DNA from: a virus
Lineage: Duplodnaviria > Heunggongvirae > Uroviricota > Caudoviricetes
Direction: 5' to 3' (one strand)
IMG/VR virus record: IMGVR_UViG_3300020045_008999
Coordinates: 128,001 to 192,000 of that record
Length of the DNA stretch: 64,000 nucleotides
Positions 1,243 to 45,135 of this stretch are shown here, in pieces. Both the position numbers and the translations under genes were made by a program. The notes under the pieces are model-generated. The model was not told where the DNA came from and made no database searches. It saw nothing but the letters and a program-made list of their open reading frames with translations. How positions within the stretch are numbered: position 1 is the stretch's first letter; each line of letters begins with the position of its first letter.

Positions 1243-2034
1243 CTATTCCAACCCATCTTCAATTTCTGAAATTAAAAGATTTAAATTTTCTTCATTTAAC
1301 GTTAAATCTTCATTCCAAATTTCAAAATGTCGTTGATACTTTATTATAGTTTTGTAATGCTTATTATTTCTCGTAAAACTTTGAGGCAGTCTATTTAAAT
1401 CACAGTGAAATCCCCTACCTATTTCAATATCATCATCACCGGAATAAGTAGAAATTAACTCATTATCAGAACATGAATAAATACCCACCACTGTAATCGG
1501 GGTCCCCATCAATGTTTTTAATTTATTAATAGCACACCGAAACGACCCACCTATTGTTCTAGGCGAACCTACCAAAGTAGTTAATCCATTACACTGGCAG
1601 TTAAAATCACCACCAATTGTAGTAGGTGCTCCCACTAATGAGGTCAATTTATTATTGTTGCACACAAAATTACCACGCACTACAATCGCGGATCCACTCA
1701 ATGATGTTAATTGATTATGACCACACATGAGGTCACCACCTATAGTCACTGGAGATCCCTCTAATGAAGTCAATTTATTACTATTGAAATAACAATTTCC
1801 ACCCACGGTATGAGGTGAACCCTGTAATGAAATCAATTCATTTAATGAGCAATTAAAATCACCAGTCACATTTCCAAATTGTAATGGAAATTTTGATAAA
1901 TTATTATCATGTAAATTCACACTACCATCCACATCAATGGAACCATCTGGGTTAATGGTATAATTTTGGATTTTATATTTCACACAAATTAAATCGATAC
2001 GATCCTTTTCTTTTTTGGTAATTAAGTTCTTCAT
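1243..2034 (-). CDS. LRR-like array paralog, 263 aa, ~6 modules
   Basis: Family N-cap, 21-aa repeats and tail; start moved to MKNL at 2034. Confidence 0.85.
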   Translation of the reverse strand: MKNLITKKEKDRIDLICVKYKIQNYTINPDGSIDVDGSVNLHDNNLSKFPLQFGNVTGDFNCSLNELISLQGSPHTVGGNCYFNSNKLTSLEGSPVTIGGDLMCGHNQLTSLSGSAIVVRGNFVCNNNKLTSLVGAPTTIGGDFNCQCNGLTTLVGSPRTIGGSFRCAINKLKTLMGTPITVVGIYSCSDNELISTYSGDDDIEIGRGFHCDLNRLPQSFTRNNKHYKTIIKYQRHFEIWNEDLTLNEENLNLLISEIEDGLE

Positions 2035-2073
2035 GTATCTATATATAAATTCTGGTGGTGTTACAATAATCAT

Positions 2074-2081
2074 TATATTTG
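2074..2081 (+). promoter_or_regulatory. Bacteroidota-type -7 promoter box (TATATTTG)
   Basis: Matches TAnnTTTG, 40 bp upstream of the 2121 ORF. Confidence 0.55.
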
Positions 2082-2120
2082 TGCTAACATTTACAAATAT
2101 ATATTAAAATAGTTAGATTA

Positions 2121-2552
2121 ATGAAAATACAATCCACTATAATAGCACCGGAAATGTTATTAATACTTTCTATAATATTCGAAAGTGTCACCCAAAATCA
2201 AAATGGCGATACTACCCAGGTATATTTTAATGATAAGACCATTAGTGCCGAACTATTTAGTATTATATCAGTAAACAAATACCCTGATAGTACTTATGGT
2301 CTTTATTTTCATAATGGTAACACAGGGGACCATAGTCTTTATTTCATACTTAGTATTGGTATTGATCTTAGTATTGATGGAAATTCTACCTATGGTAATT
2401 TTTTAATGAGTCGTGATTGCAAATTATCATTTGACACATGTAAAATGTTCTATGATTTGAATATATCAATTTACTATTATATCGATAATTGTCGTATTTG
2501 TTATGATGAGGCAGCAATAAAACGTATTATTGCAATTAATACTATTCTATAG
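2121..2552 (+). CDS. hypothetical protein, 143 aa; paralog of the 37583-38036 pseudogene
   Basis: Shared motifs YFxDKTIS, TYGxFxM, LSxDxCKxxYDLN and tail KRIIAINTIL. Confidence 0.75.
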   Translation: MKIQSTIIAPEMLLILSIIFESVTQNQNGDTTQVYFNDKTISAELFSIISVNKYPDSTYGLYFHNGNTGDHSLYFILSIGIDLSIDGNSTYGNFLMSRDCKLSFDTCKMFYDLNISIYYYIDNCRICYDEAAIKRIIAINTIL

Positions 2553-2573
2553 TCCTAACAACATATGATTATC

Positions 2574-3362
2574 TTATTCCAGACCATCTTTAATTTCATC
2601 TAATAAAGTTTGGTAGTTTTCATCATTCAACGAAAGATTATCATCCCAAATTTCAAAATGTCTTTGGTACTTCAAAATTATTTTAATATTATCTATGTTG
2701 TCAATAAATAATTTGAATAATTGCCCATCACACCGTAATTTCCCACCCAATTCAATGTCAGTATTGCCGGAATAGGTAGTTATCATTTTATTTTTAAGAC
2801 AACTAAAATCACCACCAATCACCACCGGCGAACCCTCTAATGAGGACAATTTATTAGTATTACAATAAAAATCACCACCAATCTCACTAGGCGAACCCTC
2901 TAATGACGTCAATTTATTTAATGAGCAATTAAAATTACCACCAATCTCACTAGGGGAACCCTCTAATGAAGTTAATTCATTATAAGAACAACTAAAATCA
3001 CCACTAACTTTAATAGGTGAACCCTCTAATGAAGTTAATTCATTAATGTAACAATAATAATCTTTTGAAACAGTAACCGGTCCAGCCACTAGTGAAGTCA
3101 ATTTGTTATCGTTACAGTTAAATATACCACCAACCGTATGAGGGGATCCCTTTAATGTAATTAATTTATTTCCGTCACAATAAAAATCTCCACTCACTTT
3201 CACAAATTTTAAAGGCAATGCATTTAAAGATAGTCCTGTAAATACAACACTACCATCAACGTCGATGGAACCATCTGGGTTTATCGAATAGTTTTTGATT
3301 TTATATTCTTTACATATTAAATCGATCTGGTCCTTTTCCTCTTTACTAATTAAGTTCTTCAT
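2574..3362 (-). CDS. LRR-like array paralog, 262 aa, ~6 modules
   Basis: Family N-cap, 21-aa repeats, tail. Confidence 0.85.
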   Translation of the reverse strand: MKNLISKEEKDQIDLICKEYKIKNYSINPDGSIDVDGSVVFTGLSLNALPLKFVKVSGDFYCDGNKLITLKGSPHTVGGIFNCNDNKLTSLVAGPVTVSKDYYCYINELTSLEGSPIKVSGDFSCSYNELTSLEGSPSEIGGNFNCSLNKLTSLEGSPSEIGGDFYCNTNKLSSLEGSPVVIGGDFSCLKNKMITTYSGNTDIELGGKLRCDGQLFKLFIDNIDNIKIILKYQRHFEIWDDNLSLNDENYQTLLDEIKDGLE

Positions 3363-3372
3363 AAATTTATTT

Positions 3373-4035
3373 TTATTCTAGACCATCTTCTATTTCTAGT
3401 AACAAGTCATTAAAGTTTTCAACATTTAATGATAAGTCATCATTCCAGATACTAAAATAACGTTGGTACTTCAGAATCAGTTTAATATTAGCCAGGTTAT
3501 CAATAAACAATGGTGGTAGATTTCCAACCGATATTGAGCAGTGACCGCCGAGGTTAATGTCCTCATCACCACCATAGGTGCTTATTATATCATTAATAGA
3601 ACAGTTTAAATTGCCACCAATAATTTTAGGGGCACCCTCTAACGTAGATAGTTTATTACAACTACAGTAAAAAGTACCACTCACCGTTTCAGGACTACCG
3701 GTTAATGAGGTTAAAACATTATCGCTACAATCATATTGTCCAGCTTTTGATGGTCCACCTACCAGATTGTGTAATAGATTACCTCGACAGTCAAACGTTT
3801 TATAAACTTCGTTCGGTGATCCATACAGGGTGGTTAATTTATTATTGTGACAACTGAAATAACCACTAACTTTATCAAATCGCAATGGTAATTCAGTAAG
3901 ACCTTTATTGTAAAATGATACACTACCATCAACGTCGATGGAACCATTTGGATTAATTGAATAGTTCGCTATGCTATACTTTTCACATATTAAATCAATC
4001 CGGTCCTTTTCCTCTTTAGTAATTAAGTTTTTCAT
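3373..4035 (-). CDS. LRR-like array paralog, 220 aa, ~4 modules
   Basis: Family N-cap, 21-aa repeats, tail. Confidence 0.85.
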   Translation of the reverse strand: MKNLITKEEKDRIDLICEKYSIANYSINPNGSIDVDGSVSFYNKGLTELPLRFDKVSGYFSCHNNKLTTLYGSPNEVYKTFDCRGNLLHNLVGGPSKAGQYDCSDNVLTSLTGSPETVSGTFYCSCNKLSTLEGAPKIIGGNLNCSINDIISTYGGDEDINLGGHCSISVGNLPPLFIDNLANIKLILKYQRYFSIWNDDLSLNVENFNDLLLEIEDGLE

Positions 4036-4081
4036 GGTTTATATATTAAAATGTAGTCATGGATTGTCTATCGTAGTAGTA

Positions 4082-4834
4082 TTAAAAATGTGTTTTTTTC
4101 TTTATATTTAACGAAGTCGGATCAAATATCACATAATTACAATAGGTGTCGTAATATACCACACCATCAATACCAGATCGGGACAAAAGACCAGAAGTTT
4201 CTTTAGCAGATAACCCAATTGATAAATATAAATCTTCTCCTGAACGAATTGTCATGTCGTTTATCAGTAATTGTCCGTCGTCTTGTACAATTTTTCCAAA
4301 TCCTTCTAATTTAAATTGGGTCAATATTTTACCAATCTGTTCATTAGTGATTGGTGATTTCCATAAAATGAAATCACTTCCAAAAATTTCTACTTCATAT
4401 AGAACGCGGGCCCGGACCAATTTTAATAATGTCGCCGCCTTAATTAAATCATATTCATTATTAGTTATTTCATTTGAATCTAGTAACTGTTTCGAATAGG
4501 ATTTAATAATAATTAGCAAAATTTCTGGTTTGTTACCATGTGTTTTGACAGCATTTGTCATGAATTTATTAACACCATCCGATGCGCGAATGCCATCAAG
4601 TGTCACCGTTGATTTTCCCTCTAAGCTATCTGCCCATTGCTTTGCGCTTTTCTTAGATTCCGTTAGATAGATTCCGTATCCAAATCCATTATTCCCAATT
4701 CCACTACCGATGTAATCAGATGAGAAGCTATCAAAACTAATTCCGGTACCATGAAAGGCAATTGTGACATCCCCCGTTTCATGCGACACATTTAAATATT
4801 CAGTCAGTGTTGTAGTGATGAATTTCCCAGCCAT
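4082..4834 (-). CDS. ADP-ribosyltransferase-like protein (ART-PolyVal-like)
   Basis: FHGT..FDSF...GSGIGNNGFGYGIYLT near the N-terminus and GIDGVV..YVIFDP at the C-terminus. Confidence 0.65.
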   Translation of the reverse strand: MAGKFITTTLTEYLNVSHETGDVTIAFHGTGISFDSFSSDYIGSGIGNNGFGYGIYLTESKKSAKQWADSLEGKSTVTLDGIRASDGVNKFMTNAVKTHGNKPEILLIIIKSYSKQLLDSNEITNNEYDLIKAATLLKLVRARVLYEVEIFGSDFILWKSPITNEQIGKILTQFKLEGFGKIVQDDGQLLINDMTIRSGEDLYLSIGLSAKETSGLLSRSGIDGVVYYDTYCNYVIFDPTSLNIKKKTHF

Positions 4835-4860
4835 GATGATTACTATTTATATTTTGTGAT

Positions 4861-5598
4861 TTATTCCAGTCCATCTTTAATTTCATCTAATAAGATCTGG
4901 AAGTTTTCTTCATTAAATGTATGATCTTCATTCCAAACCATGAAATAACGTTGGTATTTCAATATTAATTCTTGATGCAGTTTTAGGTTGTTTGTATAAA
5001 GAAATGGCAAATTGGCTTTTTCGATATTAAAATCACCACCCAAATACATATCAGTTTCACCCATATAGCCGGATGTTAGCTTTGGACTTAGAAGACAAAT
5101 AAAATCCCTACCAACATAAGCGGGGACACCCATTAAGTCAACTAAATTAATACTACCAAACATAAAATCACCCCCAATAAATTCAGGAGCACCAATTAAT
5201 GAAGTTAACGAATTATTATCGTAACAATAATACCCAAAATCAACTTTTGTTGGACCATTCTCTAATGTAGTAATTGAGTTTCCAATGCATGAAAAAGCAC
5301 CCTTGATATATTTCGGTGCTCCAATCAGCGATGTTAGTTCATTATGTCCGCAGTTAAAATCCCCACCAACGCTATGTGGTGAACCGATCAACGATAATAA
5401 ATCATTGTATGAACAATCAAATGATCCACTCACCTTACCAAAATTAATCGGAAACTCAGACAGGCTATGGTCATATAATTTCACATTACCATTTACGTCA
5501 ATAGATCCATCAGAATTGATTGAATATTTTACGATGTCATGTTCTTTGCAAATTGAATCGATTATATCTTTTTCTTCTTTAGTAATTAAATTCTTCAT
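4861..5598 (-). CDS. LRR-like array paralog, 245 aa, ~5 modules
   Basis: Family N-cap, 21-aa repeats, tail. Confidence 0.85.
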   Translation of the reverse strand: MKNLITKEEKDIIDSICKEHDIVKYSINSDGSIDVNGNVKLYDHSLSEFPINFGKVSGSFDCSYNDLLSLIGSPHSVGGDFNCGHNELTSLIGAPKYIKGAFSCIGNSITTLENGPTKVDFGYYCYDNNSLTSLIGAPEFIGGDFMFGSINLVDLMGVPAYVGRDFICLLSPKLTSGYMGETDMYLGGDFNIEKANLPFLYTNNLKLHQELILKYQRYFMVWNEDHTFNEENFQILLDEIKDGLE

Positions 5599-5686
5599 GA
5601 GTATAATTTAGTTCCACCTATATATAAAAATCCCACCGCTCAAAGTGTGCGCACCCACGTTGTTAACGAAATGATTTATCGACAAT

Positions 5687-6415
5687 TTATCTCAAACCGT
5701 CTTCGATTTCACTAATCAGAACATTAAAATTTTCCTCATTAAATGAAAGATCTTCATTCCAAATTTCAAAGTGTCGTTGATATTTCAAAATCAGTTTAAT
5801 ATTATTCAACTTATCAATAAACAATGGTGGTAATTTATTTTTGCTTAAAAAACACCCATCCCCAATTTCAATATCGACATCAACAGAATATGTTGAAGAT
5901 ATAACATTGCCACTTGCGTTGTAAAACCTACCCACTGTTAGCGGACTTCCAACTAATGAAGTTATTTGATTAAAGTGGCAGTAGAAATCACCACCAACTG
6001 TAGTAGGTGCGCCCACTAATGAGGTCAATTTATTATTGTTGCACACAAAATTACCACGCACGACAATCGTGGATCCACTCAATGATGTTAATTGATTATG
6101 ACCACACATGAGGTCACCACCGATAGTCACTGGAGATCCCTCTAATGAAGTCAATTTATTACTATTGAAATAACAATTTCCACCCACGGTATGGGGTGAA
6201 CCCTGTAATGAAGTCAATTTATTTAATGAGCAATTGAAATTACCAGACACAATGTTGAATTTTACAGGAAATTTAGTTAATTTTTTATCAAATAAATTCA
6301 CACTACCATTCACATCGATAGATCCATCCGAATTAATTGAATAATTTTCAATACGATATTGTTTGCAAATGGAATCGATTCGATTCGATAATATATTACT
6401 GATTATATTTTTCAT
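5687..6415 (-). CDS. LRR-like array paralog, 242 aa, ~5 modules
   Basis: Family N-cap, 21-aa repeats, tail. Confidence 0.85.
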   Translation of the reverse strand: MKNIISNILSNRIDSICKQYRIENYSINSDGSIDVNGSVNLFDKKLTKFPVKFNIVSGNFNCSLNKLTSLQGSPHTVGGNCYFNSNKLTSLEGSPVTIGGDLMCGHNQLTSLSGSTIVVRGNFVCNNNKLTSLVGAPTTVGGDFYCHFNQITSLVGSPLTVGRFYNASGNVISSTYSVDVDIEIGDGCFLSKNKLPPLFIDKLNNIKLILKYQRHFEIWNEDLSFNEENFNVLISEIEDGLR

Positions 6416-6418
6416 ATA

Positions 6419-7093
6419 TTACCCTAACCCGTCTTTAATTTCGGTCATTAAGCCATTGTAGTTCTCAACATTCAAAGTTAAGTCATCATCCCAGATACCA
6501 AAATAACGTTGGTATTTCAGAATCAGATCACCAGCTTTGTGTTGATCCATATAATCCTGTAGAGATTGTGGTAATTTATTATGATTTAAATAGCAGCCTT
6601 CACCAACTTCAATATCGACATCCCCTGAATATGTAGACGTTATGGCATTTCTCGTTGCCCAAAAAGACCCACTCACGGTCTCGGGGATTCCAACTAATGA
6701 AGTTAATTTATTATAATCACATCCAAAATAGCCACCAACTGTACGTGGGGAACCCACTAAGGAAGTTAATACATTACACTGGCAGTTAAAATATTTACCG
6801 ATAGTAGTAGGTGCCCCTATCAAATTAGCCAATCGATTATACTGGCAGTTAAAAAACCCACCAATTAAAGTAGGCGATCCTTCCAATGAAGTTAATCCAT
6901 TGTGCTGGCAACTAAAATCACCGGAAACATTATTGAATATTAATGGTAAATTATTTATTTTTTTATTAGACAGGTCAATATTACCAACCACATCAATGGA
7001 ACCATCTGGGTTAATTGAATAATTTCTAATATTATATTGCCTACAGATGGAATCGATTCGTTCCTTTCCATTTTTAGTAATTATTTTTTCCAT
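6419..7093 (-). CDS. LRR-like array paralog, 224 aa, ~4 modules
   Basis: Family architecture; start moved to MEKII at 7093. Confidence 0.8.
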   Translation of the reverse strand: MEKIITKNGKERIDSICRQYNIRNYSINPDGSIDVVGNIDLSNKKINNLPLIFNNVSGDFSCQHNGLTSLEGSPTLIGGFFNCQYNRLANLIGAPTTIGKYFNCQCNVLTSLVGSPRTVGGYFGCDYNKLTSLVGIPETVSGSFWATRNAITSTYSGDVDIEVGEGCYLNHNKLPQSLQDYMDQHKAGDLILKYQRYFGIWDDDLTLNVENYNGLMTEIKDGLG

Positions 7094-7389
7094 GTAATAA
7101 TTATAATTATCTTCATAATTCACAAAAAACAATGAATGCAAATATAAGATATACTAGGTAGATATAATGCTTTTTATTTAAATATTTTTATTCATCTATT
7201 TTCATGTTCAGTAGATTGTCGGATTATGCAGTTGTTGATATAATATTACGGTAAATTGTTCCGATAATAAAAGTTTTAAAACTAACCAATTTTAAATCTA
7301 CAAACACCTGGTATCAAAATAATTAAATATGGACTTAGAATCAATGTGGGACTGTTATTTAATATGTCCTCGGTGTTGTTAACATCCAC

Positions 7390-8181
7390 TTATTCCAAAC
7401 CATCTTTAATTTCATCTAGAAGTATTTGGAAGTTTTCATCATTTAGTGTTAGATCATTATTCCAGATTTCGAAGTGTCGCTGGTATTTTAAAATCAAATT
7501 AATATGATCAATGTTACGCAAAAGTGATTCTGGTAAAATATTATGGGACATAGTAATTTCACCACCCACCTCGATGTCTATATTTCCAGAATATGTAGAA
7601 GATAATTGATTAAGTGAACAATACATATCGTGACCAATCGTAGTAGGCGAGCCCTCTAATGAAGTTAAATTATTTTCCTCACAATTAAAATCACCACCAA
7701 CTGTAACCGGTCCACCCACAAGTGAAGTCAAATTATTATCACTACATGAATAATAACCTCCAACCGTAGTAGGGGAACCCTTTAATGATGTTAAGTTATT
7801 ACGCGAACAATTCAAAACATGATTTAATATAACCGGCAAACCCACTAATGAAGTCAAATTATTACGCGAACAATAGAAATTACCACTAACTTTTTTTGGA
7901 CCATTTTCTAACGACGTTAATTTATTATTAGAACAATCAAAATTACCACCCACTGTACGCGGAAAACCCTCAAGTGAGGTTAATTCACATTCCTCGATTG
8001 CAAAGTCACCAGTGACAATATTAAATACGAGTGGTGATACAGTTATATTTTTATTATAAATTTCGACGTCACCATCCACATCAATAGAACCATCCGCGTT
8101 TATTAAATAGTTTTGAATGGTATATTTTTTACATATTAAATCGATTTGGTCCTTTTCTTCTTTACTAATTAAGTTCTTCAT
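7390..8181 (-). CDS. LRR-like array paralog, 263 aa, ~6 modules
   Basis: Family N-cap, 21-aa repeats, tail. Confidence 0.85.
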   Translation of the reverse strand: MKNLISKEEKDQIDLICKKYTIQNYLINADGSIDVDGDVEIYNKNITVSPLVFNIVTGDFAIEECELTSLEGFPRTVGGNFDCSNNKLTSLENGPKKVSGNFYCSRNNLTSLVGLPVILNHVLNCSRNNLTSLKGSPTTVGGYYSCSDNNLTSLVGGPVTVGGDFNCEENNLTSLEGSPTTIGHDMYCSLNQLSSTYSGNIDIEVGGEITMSHNILPESLLRNIDHINLILKYQRHFEIWNNDLTLNDENFQILLDEIKDGLE

Positions 8182-8193
8182 CTGGTTGTATTT

Positions 8194-8802: not shown

Positions 8803-8891
8803 GTGTTATATATAAAAATCAGAGCACTTAAAACTATAACGGTTCAATATCACATATGGTATATTTATATATCCACAAACAACTATACGTA

Positions 8892-37487: not shown

Positions 37488-37536
37488 AGTACTATATATT
37501 AGATATTAAAAACTCACATGGAATCATAATATTTAT

Positions 37537-37544
37537 TACATTTG
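37537..37544 (+). promoter_or_regulatory. Bacteroidota-type -7 promoter box
   Basis: TACATTTG upstream of the ATG at 37583. Confidence 0.5.
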
Positions 37545-37582
37545 TACCCATCATTAATAATATGCTGTAAATATACTCAATT

Positions 37583-38036: not shown

Positions 38037-38038
38037 TA

Positions 38039-38641
38039 TTATTCTAGGCCATCTTTAATTTCATCAAGCAATTCTTGAAAGTTTTCATCATTCAATGATA
38101 GATCGGCATTCCAGATCTCAAAATGTCGCTGATATTTTAAAATTAGTTTAATGTGTACAATATTATCTTGTAATAGTTGTGGTAATTCATCACCTATGCA
38201 TCTAAATTTACCACCCAATTCAATATCTATATCACCGGAATAGGTAGAAATTATCTCACTATGTATGTAATTAATATCCCCACCAATTATGTGGGGAGTC
38301 CCCTCTAATGAAGTCAGCTCATTACCATAACAATGAAAATTACCACCTACCGATGATGGCCCACCTATTAATGAAGTTAATTGATTGCAAGAACAACTAA
38401 AATCACCACCAACCGTAATTGGGGATCCCTCTAATGTAGTCAGTTTATTAACACTACAATTAAAATTACCACTGACATTATTAAATGTTAATGGTAATTT
38501 ATTAAATTTCAGTAATGCTAAATTTACATCACCATTAACATCAATCGATCCATCTGAAGTGATATTATAATTTTCAATATTGAGATTGGTGCATATTGAA
38601 TCAATTCGATCCTTTTCTTCTTTACTAATTAAGTTCTTCAT
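38039..38641 (-). CDS. LRR-like array paralog, 200 aa, ~3 modules
   Basis: Family N-cap, 21-aa repeats, tail. Confidence 0.85.
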   Translation of the reverse strand: MKNLISKEEKDRIDSICTNLNIENYNITSDGSIDVNGDVNLALLKFNKLPLTFNNVSGNFNCSVNKLTTLEGSPITVGGDFSCSCNQLTSLIGGPSSVGGNFHCYGNELTSLEGTPHIIGGDINYIHSEIISTYSGDIDIELGGKFRCIGDELPQLLQDNIVHIKLILKYQRHFEIWNADLSLNDENFQELLDEIKDGLE

Positions 38642-38700
38642 GGTTTAATAGGGTTTCATTATATATAAAATCTAATAACTCAAAGTGGTCAGCTCAGATA

Positions 38701-39306
38701 CTATTCTAAACCATCTTCTATTTCAGTTATCAAAACCTGGAAGTTTTCTTCGTTTAATGTTAAGTCATCGTTCCAGATCTCAAAATGTCGCTGATATTTT
38801 AAAATTAGTTTAATGTGTACAATATTATCTTGTAATAGTTGTGGTAAGTTGTTACAAATACTCATATTGACAAAACCATTCACTTCAATATCTACATCAC
38901 CTGCATAGGTAGAAGTTAACTTGTTATATGCACAAATTAAATTACCACCAATTGTGTGAGGTGCACCTTCTAATGTAGATAGTTGATTATTATAGCACTG
39001 ATAATTACCACCTACTGATGATGGACCTCCTACTAATGAAGTTAAGTTGTTCCTATAACAATGAAAATTATAGCCCACCGATTGTGGAGCACCTTCTAAT
39101 GTAGATAGTTGATTAGTATCACAACAAAAATTGTCACTTACCGTACCAAACTGCAAGGGTAGTTTTTCTAGTTTCCACCTTACAAATAACATACTTCCAT
39201 CTACATCAATAGACGCATCCGGATTAATGGAATAGTTTTTTATGCGGTATTGCTTACATATTAAATCAATTTGATCCTTTTCTTCTTTACTAATTAAGTT
39301 CTTCAT
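38701..39306 (-). CDS. LRR-like array paralog, 201 aa, ~3 modules
   Basis: Family N-cap, 21-aa repeats, tail. Confidence 0.85.
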   Translation of the reverse strand: MKNLISKEEKDQIDLICKQYRIKNYSINPDASIDVDGSMLFVRWKLEKLPLQFGTVSDNFCCDTNQLSTLEGAPQSVGYNFHCYRNNLTSLVGGPSSVGGNYQCYNNQLSTLEGAPHTIGGNLICAYNKLTSTYAGDVDIEVNGFVNMSICNNLPQLLQDNIVHIKLILKYQRHFEIWNDDLTLNEENFQVLITEIEDGLE

Positions 39307-39318
39307 AAATTCATTCTT

Positions 39319-39858
39319 TTATTCTAATCCCTCTTCTATTTCTAATATCAAATCTTTAAAGTTATCAACATTAAGTGTCAGATCATCATTCCAAATCATA
39401 AAGTGTCTCTGGTACTTCAAGATCAGTTTAATGTGTATAATATTATCTTGTAATAATTGTGGTAATTCATTATTAGACAATTCCACGTCACCCACCAATT
39501 CAATATCTATATCCCCGGAATAGGTAGACGTTAACTTGTTACGTGAACAAATTAAATCACCTACAACCGTATGAGGTGCCCCCTCTAATGAAGTTATTTC
39601 ATTATAATAACAACTAAAATCACCACCAACGGTAATCGGCCCACCCTCTAAGGAAGTTAGGTTGTTCATATAACAATAGAAATCACCACTCACTTTATTA
39701 AATTTTATTGGAAATTCCACTAAATCAACATTGACTATTCTAACATAACCATCTACATCAATAGACCCATCCGGATTAATGCTATACTTCATGATGCTAT
39801 ATTGGGTACATATTGAATCAATTCGATCCTTTTCTTCTTTGGTAATTAAGTTCTTCAT
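39319..39858 (-). CDS. LRR-like array paralog, 179 aa, ~2 modules
   Basis: Family N-cap, 21-aa repeats, tail. Confidence 0.85.
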   Translation of the reverse strand: MKNLITKEEKDRIDSICTQYSIMKYSINPDGSIDVDGYVRIVNVDLVEFPIKFNKVSGDFYCYMNNLTSLEGGPITVGGDFSCYYNEITSLEGAPHTVVGDLICSRNKLTSTYSGDIDIELVGDVELSNNELPQLLQDNIIHIKLILKYQRHFMIWNDDLTLNVDNFKDLILEIEEGLE

Positions 39859-39869
39859 ATGTTATATAT

Positions 39870-40125
39870 AAAAATCTAATAACTCAAAGGGGACCAGCGA
39901 ACCGATAGGTGAGCTGCATATTAAACTAAACTTTAACGTTTTTTAACATTATAAATTTGCATATTAATTTAACTTTTATTAACTTTGTGTTGGCACTTTA
40001 CACTCAAGTACTACACTATAAAGTGCCAACATAAAGATACAATATTATTTTCATATACACAAGAATTTTAACAACGTTGTTAACATTTATATTTCAGCAC
40101 TATGTCCTCGCTTCGCTCGGACTAA
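39870..40125. repeat. copy C of the intergenic hairpin/convergent-promoter module
   Basis: Hairpin 39895-39916; TTTG-N20-TAACTTTG; 18-bp IR at 39983-40000 and 40019-40036; opposite promoter 40032-40063; minus-strand hairpin 40104-40122. Confidence 0.8.
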
Positions 40126-40225
40126 TCATTATATATATTTTGCCTCTTATAATCTAAACTTTATTTATTCTTTACGTATAGTGTAGTTGTTAACTACTGG
40201 TTTATAAGGTACCACCATGAGGATA

Positions 40226-40963
40226 CTATTCTAAACCATCTTCTATTTCGCTTATCAAAACCTGGAAGTTTTCTTCATTTAAGGTAAGATCATCATTCCA
40301 TATCTCAAAGTATCGCTGATATTTTAAAATTAGCTTAATAACAACGTTGTTATGATCCATATTAGACTTAAGGAGTGGCGGTAATGTACCACCTGGTGAA
40401 AAATGACCACTCACTTCGATATCAATATCACCAGAATAAGTGGATGTCAATTTGTTATCATAACATACAAAATCCCCGCCAATCTTAGCAGGGGAACCAT
40501 CTAAGGAGATTAACTGATTTTCATAACAGTGAAAATTATTACCGACACTAACCGGAGCACCCTTTAACGATGTTAATCTGTTAAAACCACAAACAAAACT
40601 ACCCCCAACTATATGGGGACAACCCTCTAATGAAGTCAAATTATTATGACTAATGATGAAATCACCATCGACACTAACCGGGGCACCCTCTAATGAGGTT
40701 AAAATATTATGACTAATGATGAAATCACCATCGACACTAACCGGGGCACCCTCTAATGAAGTCAAATTATTAAACGAACATGTAAATCTACCAGATATTG
40801 CACCAAATTTCAATGGCAACTTATCTAATTTTTCATTATATAAATTTATACTATCATCTACATCAATAGACCCATCCGGATTAATGGAATAGTTTTTTAT
40901 ACTGTATTGATCACATATTAAATCAATTTGATCCTTTTCTTCTTTAGATATTAAGTTCTTCAT
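40226..40963 (-). CDS. LRR-like array paralog, 245 aa, ~5 modules
   Basis: Family N-cap, 21-aa repeats, tail. Confidence 0.85.
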   Translation of the reverse strand: MKNLISKEEKDQIDLICDQYSIKNYSINPDGSIDVDDSINLYNEKLDKLPLKFGAISGRFTCSFNNLTSLEGAPVSVDGDFIISHNILTSLEGAPVSVDGDFIISHNNLTSLEGCPHIVGGSFVCGFNRLTSLKGAPVSVGNNFHCYENQLISLDGSPAKIGGDFVCYDNKLTSTYSGDIDIEVSGHFSPGGTLPPLLKSNMDHNNVVIKLILKYQRYFEIWNDDLTLNEENFQVLISEIEDGLE

Positions 40964-40974
40964 AAAGCTATATA

Positions 40975-41577
40975 TTATTCTAGGCCATCTTCAATTTCTA
41001 ATATCAAATCTTTAAAGTTATCTACGTTCAATGTTAAGTCATCATTCCAGATCTCAAAATGTCGCTGATATTTTAAAATTAGTTTAATGTGTCTAATATT
41101 ATCTTGTAATAATTGTGGTAATAGATTACCAGATAAATCCACATCAGCATCCACTTCGATATCAGTATCACCGGAATATGTAGAAGTCAGGTAGTTACGT
41201 AAACAAGTTAAATCACCACCAACCGTATGAGGTGCCCCCTCTAATGAAGTTATTTCATTATAATAACAATAAAAATTACCACCTACATAAGTAGGCGAAC
41301 CTACTAATGATGTCAATTTGTTTTCATAACATTCAAAATATCCACCAACCGTTGTAGGTGCACCATCTAATGAAGTCAGTAGATTTAAACCACAATTAAA
41401 AAACCCGGTAACTTTACCAAATCGCAATGGTATTTTAGTTAATTTTGTATTATGTAAATTAACATCATCATCTACATCAATAGTACCATCCGGGTTAATG
41501 CTATACTTCATGATGCTATATTGGGTGCATATTGAATCAATTCGATCTTTTTCTTCTTTACTAATTAAATTCTTCAT
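40975..41577 (-). CDS. LRR-like array paralog, 200 aa, ~3 modules
   Basis: Family N-cap, 21-aa repeats, tail. Confidence 0.85.
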   Translation of the reverse strand: MKNLISKEEKDRIDSICTQYSIMKYSINPDGTIDVDDDVNLHNTKLTKIPLRFGKVTGFFNCGLNLLTSLDGAPTTVGGYFECYENKLTSLVGSPTYVGGNFYCYYNEITSLEGAPHTVGGDLTCLRNYLTSTYSGDTDIEVDADVDLSGNLLPQLLQDNIRHIKLILKYQRHFEIWNDDLTLNVDNFKDLILEIEDGLE

Positions 41578-41588
41578 AAAACTATATA

Positions 41589-42317
41589 TTATTCTAGGCC
41601 GTCTTCGATTTCTACTATCAAATCCTGGAAGTTATCTTCATTGAGTGTAAGGTCTTCGTTCCAGATAAAGAAATGTCTCTGGTACTTTAAAATTAGTTTA
41701 ATATGGTATATATTGTCTACAAATAGAACAGGCAAGCATTGACTATCGAAGTATCCCTCACCACTTATTTCTATATCTACATCACCGGCATAAGTAGAAG
41801 CCAAATTATTATCTGTACAAATTAAATCACCGCCAATGGTAACCGGAGCACCCTCTAGGGTAGTTAATTGATTTTCGTCACAATAAAAACTACCAACAAC
41901 GTTAACTGGTCCACCCACTAACGTAGTTAATTGATTCCTTGTACATGAAAAGTCACCACCCACCAATTGTGGCACCCCTTCAAAACTAGTTAATTGATTA
42001 TCGTCACAATAAAAATCACCGCCAATGGTAACCGGCCCACCCACTAACGTAGCTAATTGATTATCATCACAATAAAAAAACCCACCCACCGTAGTAGGTG
42101 AGTCCTCTAGTGATGTCAGTTTGTTTGAAACACAATCGAAATTACCAAATACTTTATTAAAATTTAATGGAATTTTTTCCAAACCGGTCCTCCTTAAACT
42201 CACATCACCATCAACATCAATAGATCCATCTGAGTTAATCGTATAATTCTTAATTTTATATTTTATACATATTAAATCGATCTGGTCCTTTTCCTCTTTA
42301 CTAATTAAGTTCTTCAT
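41589..42317 (-). CDS. LRR-like array paralog, 242 aa, ~5 modules
   Basis: Family N-cap, 21-aa repeats, tail. Confidence 0.85.
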   Translation of the reverse strand: MKNLISKEEKDQIDLICIKYKIKNYTINSDGSIDVDGDVSLRRTGLEKIPLNFNKVFGNFDCVSNKLTSLEDSPTTVGGFFYCDDNQLATLVGGPVTIGGDFYCDDNQLTSFEGVPQLVGGDFSCTRNQLTTLVGGPVNVVGSFYCDENQLTTLEGAPVTIGGDLICTDNNLASTYAGDVDIEISGEGYFDSQCLPVLFVDNIYHIKLILKYQRHFFIWNEDLTLNEDNFQDLIVEIEDGLE

Positions 42318-42341
42318 ATGTTAGCGGTGTTTGTCTATATA

Positions 42342-43079
42342 TTATTCTAGCCCGTCGTCAATTTCTAATATTAAATCATTGAAGTTATCAATATTCAATG
42401 ATAAGTCATCATTCCAGATCTCAAAGTGTCTCTGGTATTTTAAAATCAATTTGATGTGGTGTATGTTAGCCATAAGCTGATGAGGTAACCTATTATCACC
42501 AAATTCAAGTTCACTATCCTCACTATCCACTTCTATGTCAATATCACCTGAGTATGTAGATGTCAATTTATTCGCACTACAATTAAAATTGCCACTTATA
42601 GTGATAGGCAAACCCACCATTGTAGTCAATATATTAAAATTACAGTTAAAATCACCACCAACAGAAATAGGCGATCCCTCTAATGACGTCAGCCGATTCT
42701 CAATACAATCAAACTGACCACCCACCGTATGAGGTCCACCCACTAAGGTAGATAAATCATTGTCACCGCAATCAAAATCACCGCCCACTGTATGTGGTGC
42801 GCCCTCTAATGAAGTTATTTGATTAAAGTGGCAGTAGAAATCACCACCAACTGTATGAGGAGATCCTTCCAATGAAGTTATTTGATTAAACGAGCATATG
42901 AAATGACCCGAAACTTTACCAAATTTCAATGGCAATTGTATTAATTTTTTACTCGAAATAAACACATCCCCATCAACATCAACAGATCCATTCGAATTAA
43001 TCGAATAATTTTCAATTTGATAATCTTTACATATTAAATCGATCTGGTCCTTTTCACCTTTGCTAATTAAATTTTTCAT
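42342..43079 (-). CDS. LRR-like array paralog, 245 aa, ~5 modules
   Basis: Family N-cap, 21-aa repeats, tail. Confidence 0.85.
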   Translation of the reverse strand: MKNLISKGEKDQIDLICKDYQIENYSINSNGSVDVDGDVFISSKKLIQLPLKFGKVSGHFICSFNQITSLEGSPHTVGGDFYCHFNQITSLEGAPHTVGGDFDCGDNDLSTLVGGPHTVGGQFDCIENRLTSLEGSPISVGGDFNCNFNILTTMVGLPITISGNFNCSANKLTSTYSGDIDIEVDSEDSELEFGDNRLPHQLMANIHHIKLILKYQRHFEIWNDDLSLNIDNFNDLILEIDDGLE

Positions 43080-43089
43080 AAGCTATATA

Positions 43090-43348
43090 TAAAAATTAGA
43101 TCCATCAAAGCGGCCAGCGAACCGATAGGTGAGCTGCATATTATATTAAACTTTAACAGTTTTAATTTGTAAATGTTAGATATATTCATTAACTTTGTGT
43201 TGGTACCTTACACTCAAGTACTACACTATAAAGTGCCAATATAAAGATACAAAATATAGTAATACAAAGCAAGTCTTTAATGTAAAAGTTATGAACGATG
43301 TTAACGAAGTGTCTTATCAACGATGTTATAAACAATCGCTCACTCAGA
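43090..43348. repeat. copy D of the intergenic hairpin/convergent-promoter module
   Basis: Hairpin 43115-43136; promoters 43166-43197 (+) and 43242-43273 (-); IR between them; truncated right hairpin. Confidence 0.8.
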
Positions 43349-43350
43349 CA

Positions 43351-43962
43351 CTACTGTAGCCCCTCTTCTATTTCAGAAATCAAATTCTGGAAGTTTTCTT
43401 CATTTAATGTAAGATCATCATTCCATATAAAGAAATACCTCTGGTACTTTAATATTAGTTTAGTAACAACGTTATTATGTTCCATATTAGACTTAAGGAG
43501 TGGCGGTAATGTATCACCTGGACAAAAAAATCCTAAAACTTCAATATCCACATCACCAGAATAAGTTGAGGTTAATTTGTTACCATTGCACTCAAAATCA
43601 CCACCAACAGTAACCGGGCCACCCACAAGTGAAGTCAATTTATTTCCATGACAGTGGTAATCACCACCAACAGTATGTGGACCACCATCTAATGAAGTCA
43701 ACTGATTTTGACCACATCTAAAATCACCACCAACAGTATGTGGACCGTCCTCTAATGTAGTCAAGAAGTTCGATGTACAAGAAAATCTACCAGAAATCTT
43801 ACCAAATTTCAATGGGAACTTAACTAAGTTCTCACTATATAAATTCACATTGCCATCCACATCAATCGATCCATCTGAGTTGATTGTATAATTCTCGATG
43901 CCGTATTGATCACATATTAAATCGATCTGGTCCTTTTCACCTTTGCTAATTAAATTTTTCAT
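43351..43962 (-). CDS. LRR-like array paralog, 203 aa, ~3 modules
   Basis: Family N-cap, 21-aa repeats, tail. Confidence 0.85.
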   Translation of the reverse strand: MKNLISKGEKDQIDLICDQYGIENYTINSDGSIDVDGNVNLYSENLVKFPLKFGKISGRFSCTSNFLTTLEDGPHTVGGDFRCGQNQLTSLDGGPHTVGGDYHCHGNKLTSLVGGPVTVGGDFECNGNKLTSTYSGDVDIEVLGFFCPGDTLPPLLKSNMEHNNVVTKLILKYQRYFFIWNDDLTLNEENFQNLISEIEEGLQ

Positions 43963-43972
43963 AAGCTATATA

Positions 43973-44515
43973 TTATTCTAATCCATCTTCAATTTCAGCT
44001 ATCAAATCAGCAAAGTTATCTGCATTCAAAGTTAAGTCATCGTTCCAGATTTCAAAATGCCTCTGGAACTTCAAGATTAGTTTAATATGATCCAGGTTAT
44101 CCAATAATTGCTGTGGTAGTAGACTGTTGTCGGCACATCTTACAATTCCGGATACGTCAATATCCGTATCACCTGTGTAAGTAGAAGTTAAATTATTATA
44201 ACTACAATAGAAATCACCACCAACCGTATGTGGGGATCCCTCTAATGAAGTTAAAACATTGTACCCACATCTAAAATCACCACCAACTGTAGCCGGGCAA
44301 CCGTCTAATGAAGTCAAGTAATTACCAAGGCAACTGAAATTACCAGTCACTTTTCCAAATTTCAAAGGTATAACAGATATTTCTTCTTCGTGTAATGCTA
44401 CATCACCATTCACATCAACTGAACCATCTGAGTTGATCGAATAGTTCTCGATGTCGTATTGTTTACATATTAAATCAATTTGATCCTTTTCTTCTTTAGA
44501 TATTAAATTCTTCAT
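43973..44515 (-). CDS. LRR-like array paralog, 180 aa, ~2 modules
   Basis: Family N-cap, 21-aa repeats, tail. Confidence 0.85.
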   Translation of the reverse strand: MKNLISKEEKDQIDLICKQYDIENYSINSDGSVDVNGDVALHEEEISVIPLKFGKVTGNFSCLGNYLTSLDGCPATVGGDFRCGYNVLTSLEGSPHTVGGDFYCSYNNLTSTYTGDTDIDVSGIVRCADNSLLPQQLLDNLDHIKLILKFQRHFEIWNDDLTLNADNFADLIAEIEDGLE

Positions 44516-44526
44516 AAAACTATATA

Positions 44527-45135
44527 TTATTTCAACCCCTCTTCAATTTCTGCTATCAAATTCAGGAAGTTTTCCTCATTCAAAGATAGATCATCGTTCC
44601 AGATTTCAAAATGTCTCTGGTACTTCAAAATTAGTTTAATATGATCCATATGATCAATAACTAGCTGAGGTAACTGTAAAAATGTGTCACCTGAGTATAA
44701 ATCGCCAGCGAATTCAATATCAATATCCCCAGAATAGGTAGACGTAATGTTATTATTAGTACATTTTAAATCACCACCAATAATACTTGGACTACATTCC
44801 AACGTAGTTAAATTGTTATAACTACAATAAAAATCACCAACTACCGTATGTGGTCCACCCTCCAATGAAGTTAATTCATTATAATAACAATTAAAATCAC
44901 CACCAATTATAGTAGGCGATCCCACCAATGTAGTCAAATGATTAAACGAACATGAGAAATGACCAGAAACTTTACCAAATTTTAATGGTAATTGTATTAA
45001 TTTTTTCCTCGAAATAAACACATCCCCATCAACATCAATAGATCCATCCGAGTTAATTTTATATTTCTTTATATTGTATAGATAGCATATCGAATCGATA
45101 CGATCCTTTTCTTCTTTGTTAATTAAGTTCTTCAT
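44527..45135 (-). CDS. LRR-like array paralog, 202 aa, ~3 modules
   Basis: Family N-cap, 21-aa repeats, tail. Confidence 0.85.
   Translation of the reverse strand: MKNLINKEEKDRIDSICYLYNIKKYKINSDGSIDVDGDVFISRKKLIQLPLKFGKVSGHFSCSFNHLTTLVGSPTIIGGDFNCYYNELTSLEGGPHTVVGDFYCSYNNLTTLECSPSIIGGDLKCTNNNITSTYSGDIDIEFAGDLYSGDTFLQLPQLVIDHMDHIKLILKYQRHFEIWNDDLSLNEENFLNLIAEIEEGLK

What the first reader, a model, noticed from the sequence alone, without database searches (positions are those of the whole stretch)
1243..45135. Patchwork mosaicism: distant paralogs swap modules and caps
Seen: gene 32371 has the N-cap of 27095 (IDVNDFVVIxNWGLxKLPLKFRNVSG), a module matching 1243 (FNCQCNGLTTLVGSP) and the C-terminal region of 41589 (CTDNNLASTYAGDVDIEISGEGYFDSQCLPVLFVDNIYHIK, identical). 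Gene 39319 joins the start of 40975 (DRIDSICTQYSIMKYSINPDG) to a block of 29959 (IDVDGYVRIVNVDLVEFPIKFNKVSGDFYC). Genes 1243 and 5687 share about 250 bp (ca. 1605-1855 vs 5986-6236) but differ on both sides. Gene 18328 shares separate blocks with 27773, 42342 and 10798, including across opposite strands. Inference: ongoing gene conversion or module shuffling produces combinatorial diversity, beyond simple tandem duplication.
Basis: partly seen in the sequence, partly recalled or inferred. Interest (0 to 1): 0.82.

Follow-up and report, generated by a model that had tools for sequence, protein, structure and literature searches.

The report
Recombining LRR gene array in megaphage
A 597-kb bacteriophage carries about 116 copies of a small leucine-rich-repeat protein gene, and the copies have repeatedly overwritten short stretches of one another, so many are true patchworks: ordinary gene conversion acting on an unusually large viral gene family.

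Summary
The window is part of a 596,785-bp tailed megaphage related to the published 634-735 kb "huge phages". It carries 116 ORFs (12.7% of the genome) of one family: a 57-aa N-cap, 2-10 LRR units of 21 aa (63 nt), and a 69-aa C-cap.

Paralogs are about 70% identical overall but share in-frame, in-register tracts of 40-251 nt at 94-100% identity.
- Synonymous sites are identical inside the tracts (98% same codon, against 59% outside).
- 45 gene pairs share an exact 40-mer or longer, against 0.4 in a codon-shuffled null.
- N-cap and C-cap trees share no well-supported clade.
- Triplet tests reach p=2e-16.
- A GENECONV-like test gives 7 pairs with global P below 0.05.

Best reading: ectopic homologous recombination, as short gene-conversion tracts plus unequal exchange of repeats and genes. 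The phage encodes a UvsX-like recombinase. No reverse transcriptase or serine recombinase was found, and nothing resembles a silent-cassette layout.

Caveats:
- "Ongoing" cannot be tested, because every chimeric gene checked is a singleton in the public protein collection.
- Tracts are not discrete modules.
- Two of the quoted blocks are weak or not pair-specific.

This scan found the same phenomenon earlier in another megaphage. The mechanism is ordinary; the scale in a phage is not.

The parts
1..51585 (.). Window part of the cap-LRR-cap gene array: about 60 intact genes in three blocks (- 1..8802, + 9079..21899, - 21935..51585). The array continues upstream of the window to about G000 44.5 kb.
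   Evidence: ORF lists. The family HMM finds 116 ORFs genome-wide and 67 stop-to-stop frames in the window. The 63-nt period is confirmed by TRF.
32371..33414 (-). 10-repeat chimeric gene (347 aa). Its N-cap is 27095-like and its C-terminal part is 41589-like. It also holds an internal 63-nt-offset duplicate (gene nt 199-296 vs 262-359, 94.9%).
   Evidence: N-cap sister is 27095 (99/94), C-cap sister is 41589 (100/100). AU test rejects (32371,27095) on C-cap data, p=0.0037. Triplet Fisher p=1.2e-10.
33292..33354 (-). 63-nt tract, 100% identical to 27638-27700 in gene 27095. The extended 88-100% zone covers gene nt 63-170.
32465..32598 (-). 134-nt tract, 98.5% identical to 41683-41816 in gene 41589. 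It holds the longest exact stretch shared between family genes (about 110-119 nt).
   Evidence: No third gene reaches 90% over it.
32720..32797 (-). 78-nt tract, 96.2% identical to 41938-42015 in gene 41589, on the same 315-nt (5-repeat) offset.
1604..1854 (-). 251-nt tract in gene 1243, 96.8% identical (8 mismatches) to 5985-6235 in gene 5687. It spans about four repeats and both flanks are diverged.
   Evidence: The best third gene is only 67% identical.
39319..39858 (-). 2-repeat gene with a 40975-like backbone (one repeat fewer), carrying a 29959-derived tract.
   Evidence: Diagonal identity profile. C-cap sister is 40975 (97/88), N-cap sister is 29959 (100/99).
39672..39781 (-). 110-nt tract, 99.1% identical to 30630-30739 in gene 29959.
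   Evidence: pair-exclusive.
39767..39840 (-). 74-nt tract, 95.9% identical to 41486-41559 in gene 40975.
18775..18868 (+). 94-nt tract in gene 18328, 96.8% identical to 28012-28105 in gene 27773 on the opposite strand.
   Evidence: pair-exclusive.
18947..19026 (+). 80-nt tract (97.5%) in the C-cap of gene 18328, matching 11303-11382 in gene 10798. A further 53 nt at 100% follows.
   Evidence: C-cap clade 100/95.
18113..18206 (+). C-terminal tract of gene 17600 shared with 27091-27184 (gene 27095, opposite strand, 97.9%) and with gene 28449. The three genes form a trio.
   Evidence: Triplet tests p=2e-16 and 9e-12.
11916..11994 (+). 79-nt tract in the repeat region of gene 11500, 100% identical to 31253-31331 in gene 30827 on the opposite strand, at a different repeat position.
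38109..38185 (-). 77-nt tract, 100% identical between genes 38039 and 38701 (38771-38847). It is the top fragment in the GENECONV-like test.
   Evidence: run of 59 polymorphic sites, global P<0.0005.
8832..9492 (+). Family copy split over two reading frames: N-cap frame 8832-9128, C-part frame 9061-9492. Probably a frameshifted pseudogene, sitting at the strand-switch point.
   Evidence: Six-frame HMM scan.
46583..47147 (-). Second family copy split over two frames: N-cap 46980-47147, remainder 46583-47002.
16082..16279 (+). Isolated C-cap fragment (HMM positions 186-242) lying between two intact genes.

Best explanation
**What it is.** The array is a very large paralogous family of leaderless cap-LRR-cap proteins in a tailed megaphage. 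The host is probably a Flavobacterium-like member of the Bacteroidota.

**How the mosaic arises.** The genes evolve by birth and death plus ectopic homologous recombination. During replication, misaligned paralogs pair through the conserved cap and scaffold codons. Short tracts (40-251 nt) are then copied from one gene into another, in frame and in repeat register but often at a different repeat position. Genes on either strand and up to tens of kb apart take part. In-register unequal exchange also adds or removes 63-nt repeats and whole gene-plus-spacer units.

**Consequence.** Blocks of hypervariable concave-face residues are placed into new contexts, giving chimeric binders.

**Shown:** the tracts, their synonymous identity, their register, tree incongruence, the proximity effect, recent intragenic repeat duplicates, and broken copies.

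**Inferred:**
- that the phage's own UvsX-type recombination machinery does this
- that no dedicated shuffling device is involved
- that selection favours the resulting diversity of a binder repertoire.
For: **Phage identity**
- The genome is a 596,785-bp virus record estimated 98% complete.
- It has a large terminase and no NCLDV capsid hit.
- The terminase is 63-64% identical to those of the 634- and 642-kb uncultured huge phages.

**Family**
- 116 ORFs cover 75.6 kb, or 12.7% of the genome.
- Gene sizes are quantised in 21-aa steps, 179 to 347 aa.

**Tracts**
- Strict megablast finds tracts of 94-100% identity against a background near 70%.
- Flanks on the same diagonal are 45-75% identical.
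- Repeat-region offsets are multiples of 63 nt.
- Tracts stay inside genes and their lengths are not multiples of 63.
- Same-codon use at identical residues is 98.1% inside tracts and 59.5% outside. 24 of 48 tracts are exclusive to two genes, including all 11 in the repeat region.
- Codon-shuffle null: 45 pairs vs 0.4 for exact 40-mers or longer.

**Incongruence and formal tests**
- Nearest neighbours in N-cap and C-cap coincide for 2 of 66 genes. Mantel r is 0.32.
- 0 of 10 well-supported N-cap clades and 0 of 12 C-cap clades recur in the other tree. 6 of the 10 conflict directly.
- AU p=0.0037 against (32371,27095) on C-cap data.
- Triplet Fisher tests give p=2e-16, 9e-12 and 1.2e-10, which survive correction for 137,280 triplets.
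- Sawyer-type permutation: 7 of 231 pairs have global P below 0.05, three of them below 0.0005.

**Pattern expected of homologous recombination**
- Partners lie closer than random family pairs (median 9.2 vs 32.4 kb, p=7e-11). 10 of 48 tracts join genes on opposite strands.
- Adjacent repeats inside genes reach 92-93% identity.

**Machinery**
- A UvsX-like recombinase is present.
- No reverse transcriptase and no serine recombinase were found.

**Assembly**
- No exact repeat of 150 nt or more exists anywhere in the genome, and the longest exact stretch shared between family genes is about 110-119 nt.

**Binder surface**
- Repeat positions 2, 4, 6, 7 and 9 have 2.8-3.8 bits of entropy, against 0.8 or less at the invariant scaffold positions.
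- The AF2 model has pLDDT 94, and all 50 top structural matches are LRR proteins.
Against: - The PHI test on the 22 three-repeat genes is not significant (observed 1.604 vs permuted 1.586). This is probably because about 35% divergence saturates site compatibility.
- AU tests on N-cap data, and one on C-cap data, are not significant (p=0.12-0.66).
- Short tracts at gene nt 1-52 and in part of the C-cap are family-wide. They may reflect constraint rather than exchange.
- Every chimeric gene checked that is held in the 15-billion-protein collection is a singleton there. Neither single-molecule linkage nor present-day activity is therefore shown.
- A minimal 183-aa tyrosine recombinase lies inside the array zone, 20 kb upstream of the window. 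Its role is unknown.
- UvsX involvement is inferred from its presence only.
- Paralogs of a related phage contig are interspersed with this genome's copies in the C-cap tree. Conversion therefore does not homogenise the family, and many lineages are old.
Confidence: 0.8

Rival explanations
1. Assembly artefact: a short-read assembler joined paralogs wrongly at shared k-mers, so the chimeras do not exist on real molecules.
For: The record is a single metagenomic contig with no second assembly. All chimeric genes checked that are in the collection are singletons there. The array is highly repetitive.
Against: - Shared tracts must exist in the reads for both contexts to be assembled. A mis-join could only swap flanks.
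- No exact repeat of 150 nt or more exists in the genome, and the family maximum is about 110-119 nt. That is below the k=127 and 150-nt read lengths commonly used (my knowledge of usual practice, not checked for this record).
- Many tracts carry 1-8 mismatches, so they are distinct loci.
- All chimeras keep frame, repeat register and both caps.
- Most tracts have diverged flanks on both sides. That needs two mis-joins per tract without disrupting the order of a 98%-complete genome.
Confidence: 0.05
2. A programmed diversification device shuffles cassettes: a shufflon-type site-specific recombinase, a DGR, or VLR-like copy-choice from silent cassettes.
For: - A 183-aa catalytic-domain-only tyrosine recombinase with R...HxxR...Y motifs lies within the array zone (G000 108146-108697).
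- Paralogs sit on both strands.
- The cap-LRR-cap architecture and the Y/N/D/S/H/G-rich variable positions recall VLRs and DGR targets.
Against: - No reverse transcriptase and no serine recombinase were found in a genome estimated 98% complete.
- About 60 of the 67 family frames in the window are complete genes with a start codon, both caps and a conserved 10-13-nt spacer. They are not silent partial cassettes around one expression site.
- Tract lengths and borders vary continuously.
- Partner choice decays with distance, as expected for homology search.
- The recombinase is 20 kb from the window and is a single copy.
Confidence: 0.06
3. There is no exchange at all. The shared stretches are retained ancestral sequence, held by purifying selection, codon bias or nucleotide-level constraint.
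For: - Patches at gene nt 1-52 and in part of the C-cap are shared by up to 18 genes.
- The PHI test is not significant.
Against: - The codon-shuffle null, which keeps protein sequences and codon usage, gives 0.4 pairs against 45 observed.
- Half of the tracts are exclusive to two genes, and all repeat-region tracts are.
- Tracts sit at different repeat positions in the two genes.
- Well-supported clades conflict between the caps.
- Triplet tests reach p=2e-16.
Confidence: 0.03
4. Exchange is real, but mainly with co-infecting related phages (inter-genome recombination importing foreign cassettes) rather than between paralogs of one genome.
For: - Related phages carry the same family: L001 and L003-L005.
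- Their copies are interspersed with this genome's copies in the C-cap tree.
- Phage co-infection recombination is common (general knowledge).
Against: For every tract listed, both copies are present in this one genome at 94-100% identity, so an internal donor suffices. The distance dependence of partners within the genome is not expected for imported DNA.
Confidence: 0.06

Closest known systems
Tandem LRR surface-protein locus of Flavobacterium psychrophilum (Altae-Tran et al. 2020, PMC10392669; Duchaud et al. 2007, as cited there)
   Same: Both are head-to-tail arrays of small LRR genes with a variable number of ~22-residue repeats and hypervariable positions on one face. Both show nucleotide-level signs of extensive recombination and strain-to-strain turnover. 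The likely host clade of this phage is the same genus.
   Different: - The bacterial locus has at most 19 genes, and its proteins carry a signal peptide and a T9SS C-terminal signal.
- Its recombination signature is gene fragments joined at microhomologies, read as illegitimate recombination.
- Here the element is a phage, with 116 copies, no signal peptide and its own N- and C-caps. The tracts are in-frame, in-register homologous tracts.
Sequence exchange (gene conversion and unequal crossing-over) in plant NLR/LRR resistance-gene clusters (established knowledge; e.g. context in PMC4945094)
   Same: Tandem LRR paralogs form patchworks of short converted tracts. Variable solvent-exposed LRR residues are maintained, and family dynamics follow birth and death.
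   Different: Those are eukaryotic, meiotic, host-immunity receptors fused to signalling domains. Here the genes lie in a lytic-type phage genome and encode stand-alone 180-350-aa proteins.
Recombination-driven gene arrays in poxviruses (PMC6115191) and multigene repeat-protein families of giant viruses (general knowledge)
   Same: A virus amplifies and recombines a host-interaction gene family. Recombination spreads variants among copies.
   Different: Poxvirus arrays are near-identical copies that become homogenised. Here the copies are about 30-35% diverged and stay diverse. The element is a tailed phage, not an NCLDV.
Lamprey/hagfish variable lymphocyte receptors (e.g. PDB 2o6q; general knowledge)
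   Same: Both are capped LRR solenoids with a variable number of modules and a hypervariable concave face. Patchwork copying uses short homologies. The structural match is Z 8.3.
   Different: VLRs are assembled somatically from one incomplete gene plus silent partial cassettes. Here all copies are complete germline-type genes, with no sign of an expression site.
Listeria internalin J cysteine-ladder LRR (PDB 3bz5) and IpaH/YopM-type bacterial LRRs
   Same: Repeats are about 21 residues, with a conserved Cys in the LxCxxNxL strand and a conserved Pro. Structural matches: IpaH9.8 LRR Z 9.8, InlJ Z 8.5, YopM Z 8.6.
   Different: Sequence identity is only 14-20%. The caps differ. There is no E3-ligase or cell-wall anchor domain, and no secretion signal.
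LRR arrays noted earlier by this scan in another megaphage (e1-5408138, e1-5408115)
   Same: Tandem small LRR genes in a giant phage with patch swapping, read as ordinary duplication, gene conversion and selection.
   Different: Those arrays hold about 24-27 copies. This genome has 116. Whether the two belong to the same protein family was not tested here.

Membership tests
Leucine-rich repeat (LRR) superfamily | Tandem 20-29-residue repeats with an LxxLxLxxN/CxL-type core | tested here: met
   199 full units give the consensus G[DNS]FxCxxNxLTSLxG[SAG]PxxVG, period 21 aa. TRF gives a 63-nt period.
Leucine-rich repeat (LRR) superfamily | Curved solenoid fold matching solved LRR structures | tested here: met
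   AF2 model pLDDT 94.3. All 50 best VIA-align matches are LRR proteins, Z 7.6-9.8. Foldseek alone gave no match with E at or below 0.001.
Leucine-rich repeat (LRR) superfamily | Hit to a curated Pfam LRR model above its gathering score | tested here: inconclusive
   The two members scanned had no LRR family above cut-off. A few members carry a precomputed PF12799 (LRR_4) label.
Interlocus (ectopic) gene conversion among paralogs | Short tracts of near-identity bounded on both sides by background divergence | tested here: met
   Tracts of 40-251 nt at 94-100%, with flanks at 45-75%.
Interlocus (ectopic) gene conversion among paralogs | Identity extends to synonymous sites beyond what protein conservation explains | tested here: met
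   98.1% vs 59.5% same codon. Codon-shuffle null: 45 vs 0.4 pairs.
Interlocus (ectopic) gene conversion among paralogs | Different gene segments give conflicting phylogenies; formal recombination tests are significant | tested here: met
   0/10 and 0/12 supported clades are shared. AU p=0.0037. Triplet p down to 2e-16. Sawyer-type global P<0.05 for 7 pairs. PHI is not significant.
Interlocus (ectopic) gene conversion among paralogs | Non-reciprocal transfer, observed as polymorphism within a population | not testable with these tools
   No reads are available, and there are no near-identical relatives. The nine chimeric genes found in the collection are singleton clusters.
Diversity-generating retroelement (DGR) | Reverse transcriptase with a template/variable repeat pair | tested here: not met
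   No RVT_1 match in the genome, which is estimated 98% complete.
Shufflon / invertible cassette system | Dedicated site-specific recombinase acting on fixed short sites, with one expressed gene and silent partial cassettes | tested here: not met
   No serine recombinase. One minimal tyrosine recombinase lies 20 kb away. Genes are complete with starts and both caps. Tract borders are variable. A direct search for conserved recombination sites was not done.
VLR-type somatic assembly | Incomplete germline gene flanked by partial LRR cassettes | tested here: not met
   About 60 complete cap-LRR-cap ORFs, and only four broken or fragmentary copies in the window.

The most novel reading that the evidence does not exclude
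The megaphage maintains a germline library of more than 100 intracellular or virion-borne LRR binders. It uses its own recombination-dependent replication to keep reshuffling their binding faces, so each lineage, perhaps each burst, carries a different repertoire. This would be an anticipatory counter-defence or host-range system in a virus of bacteria, analogous in logic to plant NLR clusters or VLRs. It may be aimed at the equally recombining LRR surface loci or the defence proteins of Flavobacterium hosts.
Probability: 0.25. Interest if true: 0.85.

Novelty: new variant of a known kind. Interest (0 to 1): 0.55.

Why it matters
Multigene families diversified by gene conversion are textbook for plants, parasites and some bacteria. 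They are known in poxviruses and giant viruses. My literature searches found no description of a tailed phage that spends an eighth of a 597-kb genome on about 116 mosaic LRR genes.

It suggests that part of the "extra" DNA of megaphages is a recombining binder repertoire, and it gives a concrete, testable locus: long reads for junction polymorphism, virion proteomics, and binding partners. The sporadic single copies in Flavobacterium genomes also give a host lead for an uncultured phage clade.

The mechanism itself looks ordinary, which tempers the interest.

Tried and rejected
- **PHI test** on 22 equal-length genes: not significant. I judge it underpowered at about 35% divergence.
- **AU tests** on the 171-nt N-cap, and for (39319,29959) on the C-cap: not significant. 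In two cases the constrained tree scored higher than the free search.
- **Mismatches inside tracts**, classed by codon type (hypervariable 8 nonsynonymous / 6 synonymous; scaffold 6/7; caps 21/39): too few to show selection after conversion.
- **Genome-wide homogenisation (concerted evolution):** rejected. Six C-caps from relative L001 need 5 label changes on the tree, no better than shuffles.
- **Independent copies of the chimeras:** megablast of 6 kb of the array against 50,697 phage records found nothing. The nine chimeric genes found in the collection are all singleton clusters, and the exact 32371 protein is not held.
- **Foldseek against PDB:** no match with E at or below 0.001. The exhaustive aligner then returned only LRR folds.
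- **Other mechanisms:** DGR, serine invertase and NCLDV identity were checked and not found.
- **Published huge phages** LR756502, LR756501 and LR745206 hold only 1-8 distant matches at 37-40% identity, so they were no use for dating events.
- **Phase of tract borders within the repeat:** not analysed, because borders are defined by mismatches, which cluster at hypervariable codons by construction.
- **Literature:** searches for phage LRR multigene families found no relevant paper.

Full report
**Where the window lies.** The window is G000:C1:128001-192000 of a single 596,785-bp IMG/VR virus record. CheckV estimates it 98% complete. The genome has a large terminase and no NCLDV capsid match. 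Its terminase is 63-64% identical to those of the 634-kb and 642-kb uncultured huge phages LR745206 and LR756502, and 42% identical to that of the 735-kb phage. The nearest cultured relatives are Tenacibaculum and Flavobacterium phages. This is therefore a tailed megaphage of the clade with the largest known phage genomes.

**The gene family.** From window base 1 to about 51.6 kb, nearly every ORF belongs to one family.
- Each protein has a 57-aa N-cap, then n units of a 21-aa repeat, then a C-cap of about 69 aa.
- Sizes are quantised at 179/200/221/242/263/284/305/326/347 aa. TRF confirms the 63-nt period.
- An HMM built from genome ORFs finds 116 ORFs, covering 75.6 kb or 12.7% of the genome. 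93 of them are full-length.
- Genes are packed with spacers of mostly 10-13 nt, many starting TATATA.
- The repeat consensus is G[DNS]FxCxxNxLTSLxG[SAG]PxxVG. Scaffold positions are nearly invariant. Positions 2, 4, 6, 7 and 9, the x positions of the LRR strand, have 2.8-3.8 bits of entropy and are rich in Y/N/S/D/H/G.
- An AlphaFold2 model of a three-repeat member has pLDDT 94.3. Foldseek gave nothing significant. An exhaustive structural search returned only LRR proteins among the top 50: IpaH9.8 LRR Z 9.8, internalins, cysteine-ladder InlJ Z 8.5, YopM and VLRs.
- There is no signal peptide-like N-terminus and no Pfam family above cut-off.

**Checking the observation.** All five quoted peptides are present in the stated gene pairs.
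- An ordinary blastn all-vs-all gives a mean HSP identity of 72.7%. That hides the patches, because HSPs run on into the flanks.
- A strict megablast with a heavy mismatch penalty shows them. Tracts of 40-251 nt at 94-100% identity are flanked on the same diagonal by 45-75% identity.
- Diagonal identity profiles make the mosaics explicit. Gene 32371 is 27095-like at gene nt 63-170 and 41589-like at nt 609-690 and 819-940, at a five-repeat offset. Gene 39319 is a 40975-like gene with one repeat fewer, interrupted at nt 78-187 by a tract 99% identical to 29959. Genes 1243 and 5687 share 251 nt and nothing else.
- Gene 18328 has separate tracts from 27773 (opposite strand), from 10798, and from a paralog 34 kb upstream of the window.
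- Two quoted items are weak. The FNCQC block of 32371/1243 is 41/45 nt identical. The 18328/42342 block lies in a C-cap stretch where 18328 matches eight other genes as closely.

**Is it more than chance or constraint?**
- I kept every protein sequence and shuffled synonymous codons within each gene. Pairs sharing an exact 40-mer or longer fell from 45 to a mean of 0.4 (maximum 2). For 50-mers the fall was from 24 to 0, and for 60-mers from 13 to 0.
- At identical residues, the same codon is used in 98.1% of cases inside tracts and 59.5% outside.
- 24 of 48 tracts are exclusive to two genes. These include all 11 in the repeat region and all tracts of 94 nt or more. The short tracts at gene nt 1-52 are shared by 10-18 genes and are not evidence of pairwise exchange.
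- One of the 48 tracts is most likely an artefact of two overlapping ORF calls upstream of the window.
- A self-comparison of 200 kb around the array shows that tracts stay inside genes and only rarely run across a spacer. Their lengths are not multiples of 63 nt.
- Offsets between partners in the repeat region are multiples of 63 nt. Exchange is therefore in register but between different repeat positions.

**Phylogenetic and formal tests.**
- N-cap and C-cap nearest neighbours coincide for only 2 of 66 genes, and cap distances correlate weakly (Mantel r=0.32).
- In ML trees, none of the 10 well-supported N-cap clades occurs in the C-cap tree, and none of the 12 C-cap clades occurs in the N-cap tree. 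Six of the ten conflict directly.
- The C-cap data reject a (32371,27095) clade (AU p=0.0037). The other AU tests lacked power (p=0.12-0.66).
- Informative-site triplet tests on the cap boundaries fixed beforehand give p=2e-16 (27095), 9e-12 (17600) and 1.2e-10 (32371). These survive correction for all 137,280 triplets.
- A Sawyer/GENECONV-style permutation on the 22 equal-length genes gives 7 of 231 pairs with global P below 0.05, three of them below 0.0005.
- The PHI test on the same alignment was not significant. I attribute this to saturation at about 35% divergence, and I report it as evidence against.

**Artefact check.** No exact repeat of 150 nt or more exists in the genome. The longest exact stretch shared by two family genes is about 110-119 nt. 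Many tracts carry a few mismatches, and all chimeras keep frame, register and caps. A mis-assembly could swap flanks but could not create the shared tracts. Independent confirmation is not possible. The chimeric genes I looked up are singletons among 15 billion proteins, and no phage record matches the DNA.

**Mechanism.**
- Tract-sharing partners lie closer together than random family pairs (median 9.2 vs 32.4 kb, p=7e-11). 10 of 48 tracts join genes on opposite strands.
- Adjacent repeats inside some genes are 92-95% identical, which points to recent unit duplication.
- The window also holds two copies split across frames, one truncated copy and one isolated C-cap fragment.
- The genome encodes a UvsX-like recombinase, and no reverse transcriptase or serine recombinase was found.
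- One catalytic-domain-only tyrosine recombinase lies in the array zone, 20 kb upstream of the window. Genes are complete rather than silent cassettes, and tract borders vary, so I see no sign of a programmed shuffling device.
- The simplest account is ectopic homologous recombination in the replicating phage DNA pool. It would act as short gene-conversion tracts plus in-register unequal exchange.
- Recent tracts cover 8.7% of family sequence, and 12.5% in the window.
- Conversion does not homogenise the family. Copies from the related contig L001 (74-79% nucleotide identity in non-family genes) are interspersed with this genome's copies.

**Context and host.**
- The published relatives of this phage have only 1-8 distant copies. 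Several uncultured contigs carry arrays of the family.
- A pattern scan of one genome for each of 185,579 species found a single bacterial hit, in Flavobacterium caseinilyticum. It is a lone 223-aa copy with both caps, beside a serine recombinase and two large genes that I read, from sequence alone and without a family search, as BREX PglZ/BrxL-like.
- A profile search of 301 Flavobacterium genomes found full-length single copies in four.
- This points to Flavobacterium-like hosts. That genus has its own recombining tandem LRR surface locus (PMC10392669).

**Comparison and verdict.**
- The process matches sequence exchange in plant NLR clusters and the F. psychrophilum LRR locus. It recalls recombining gene arrays in poxviruses.
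- It fails the defining features of DGRs, shufflons and VLR assembly.
- This scan has already reported recombining LRR arrays of about 24-27 genes in another megaphage (e1-5408138, e1-5408115). Here the family is about four times larger.
The tracts are conversion tracts, not discrete modules. Present-day activity is unproven. Adaptive value is inferred only from the hypervariable concave face.

Noticed in passing
window 22976-23121: Perfect tandem array of a 16-nt unit (9.1 copies, 100% matches) in the 550-nt gap beside the convergent strand switch of the array. It holds the longest exact repeat in the whole genome.
   Followed up: no
window 4082-4834 (-): A 250-aa non-family gene embedded in the array has sub-threshold matches to ART-PolyVal (ADP-ribosyltransferase of polyvalent proteins) and DUF3990. 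It is conserved at 79% nucleotide identity, again next to family genes, in the related contig L001 (4485-5237).
   Followed up: partly
G000:C1:108146-108697 (L006:1147-1698), about 20 kb upstream of the window: A 183-aa ORF consisting of a tyrosine-recombinase catalytic domain only (Pfam Phage_integrase, 38 bits; R...HxxR...Y motifs visible against XerA). It sits among the LRR genes. Its role is unknown.
   Followed up: partly
L007 (Flavobacterium caseinilyticum AT-3-2, 4998-5669); also G065, G109 and G235: Single full-length family members with both caps occur in 4 of 301 Flavobacterium genomes searched. In L007 the copy sits beside a serine recombinase, an HTH/ImmA-like pair, and two large genes that look like BREX PglZ and BrxL (my reading of the sequences, not checked against a family library).
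   Followed up: partly
window 8832-9492 (+), 46583-47147 (-), 48024-48473 (-), 16082-16279 (+): Broken family copies: two are split across reading frames, one lacks the C-cap, and one is an isolated C-cap fragment. This fits birth-and-death turnover.
   Followed up: partly
window 60604-61002 (+) and 62230-62616 (+); further copies just beyond the window end: Small 128-132-aa proteins outside the array match only the second half of the N-cap plus the first repeat region of the family HMM (about 59 bits). They may be a related mini-family sharing the N-terminal module.
   Followed up: no
window 61294-61481: A 93-nt unit duplicated in tandem at 98% identity, lying almost wholly inside ORF 61324-61950 (non-family).
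   Followed up: no
spacers between family genes, e.g. window 30817-30826, 31559-31568, 32361-32370, 36009-36018: 15 of 41 same-strand intergenic spacers are exactly 10 nt, and many read TATATA plus 4 nt before the ATG. There is no Shine-Dalgarno-like motif, which fits a Bacteroidota-type host. The duplication unit is gene plus spacer.
   Followed up: no
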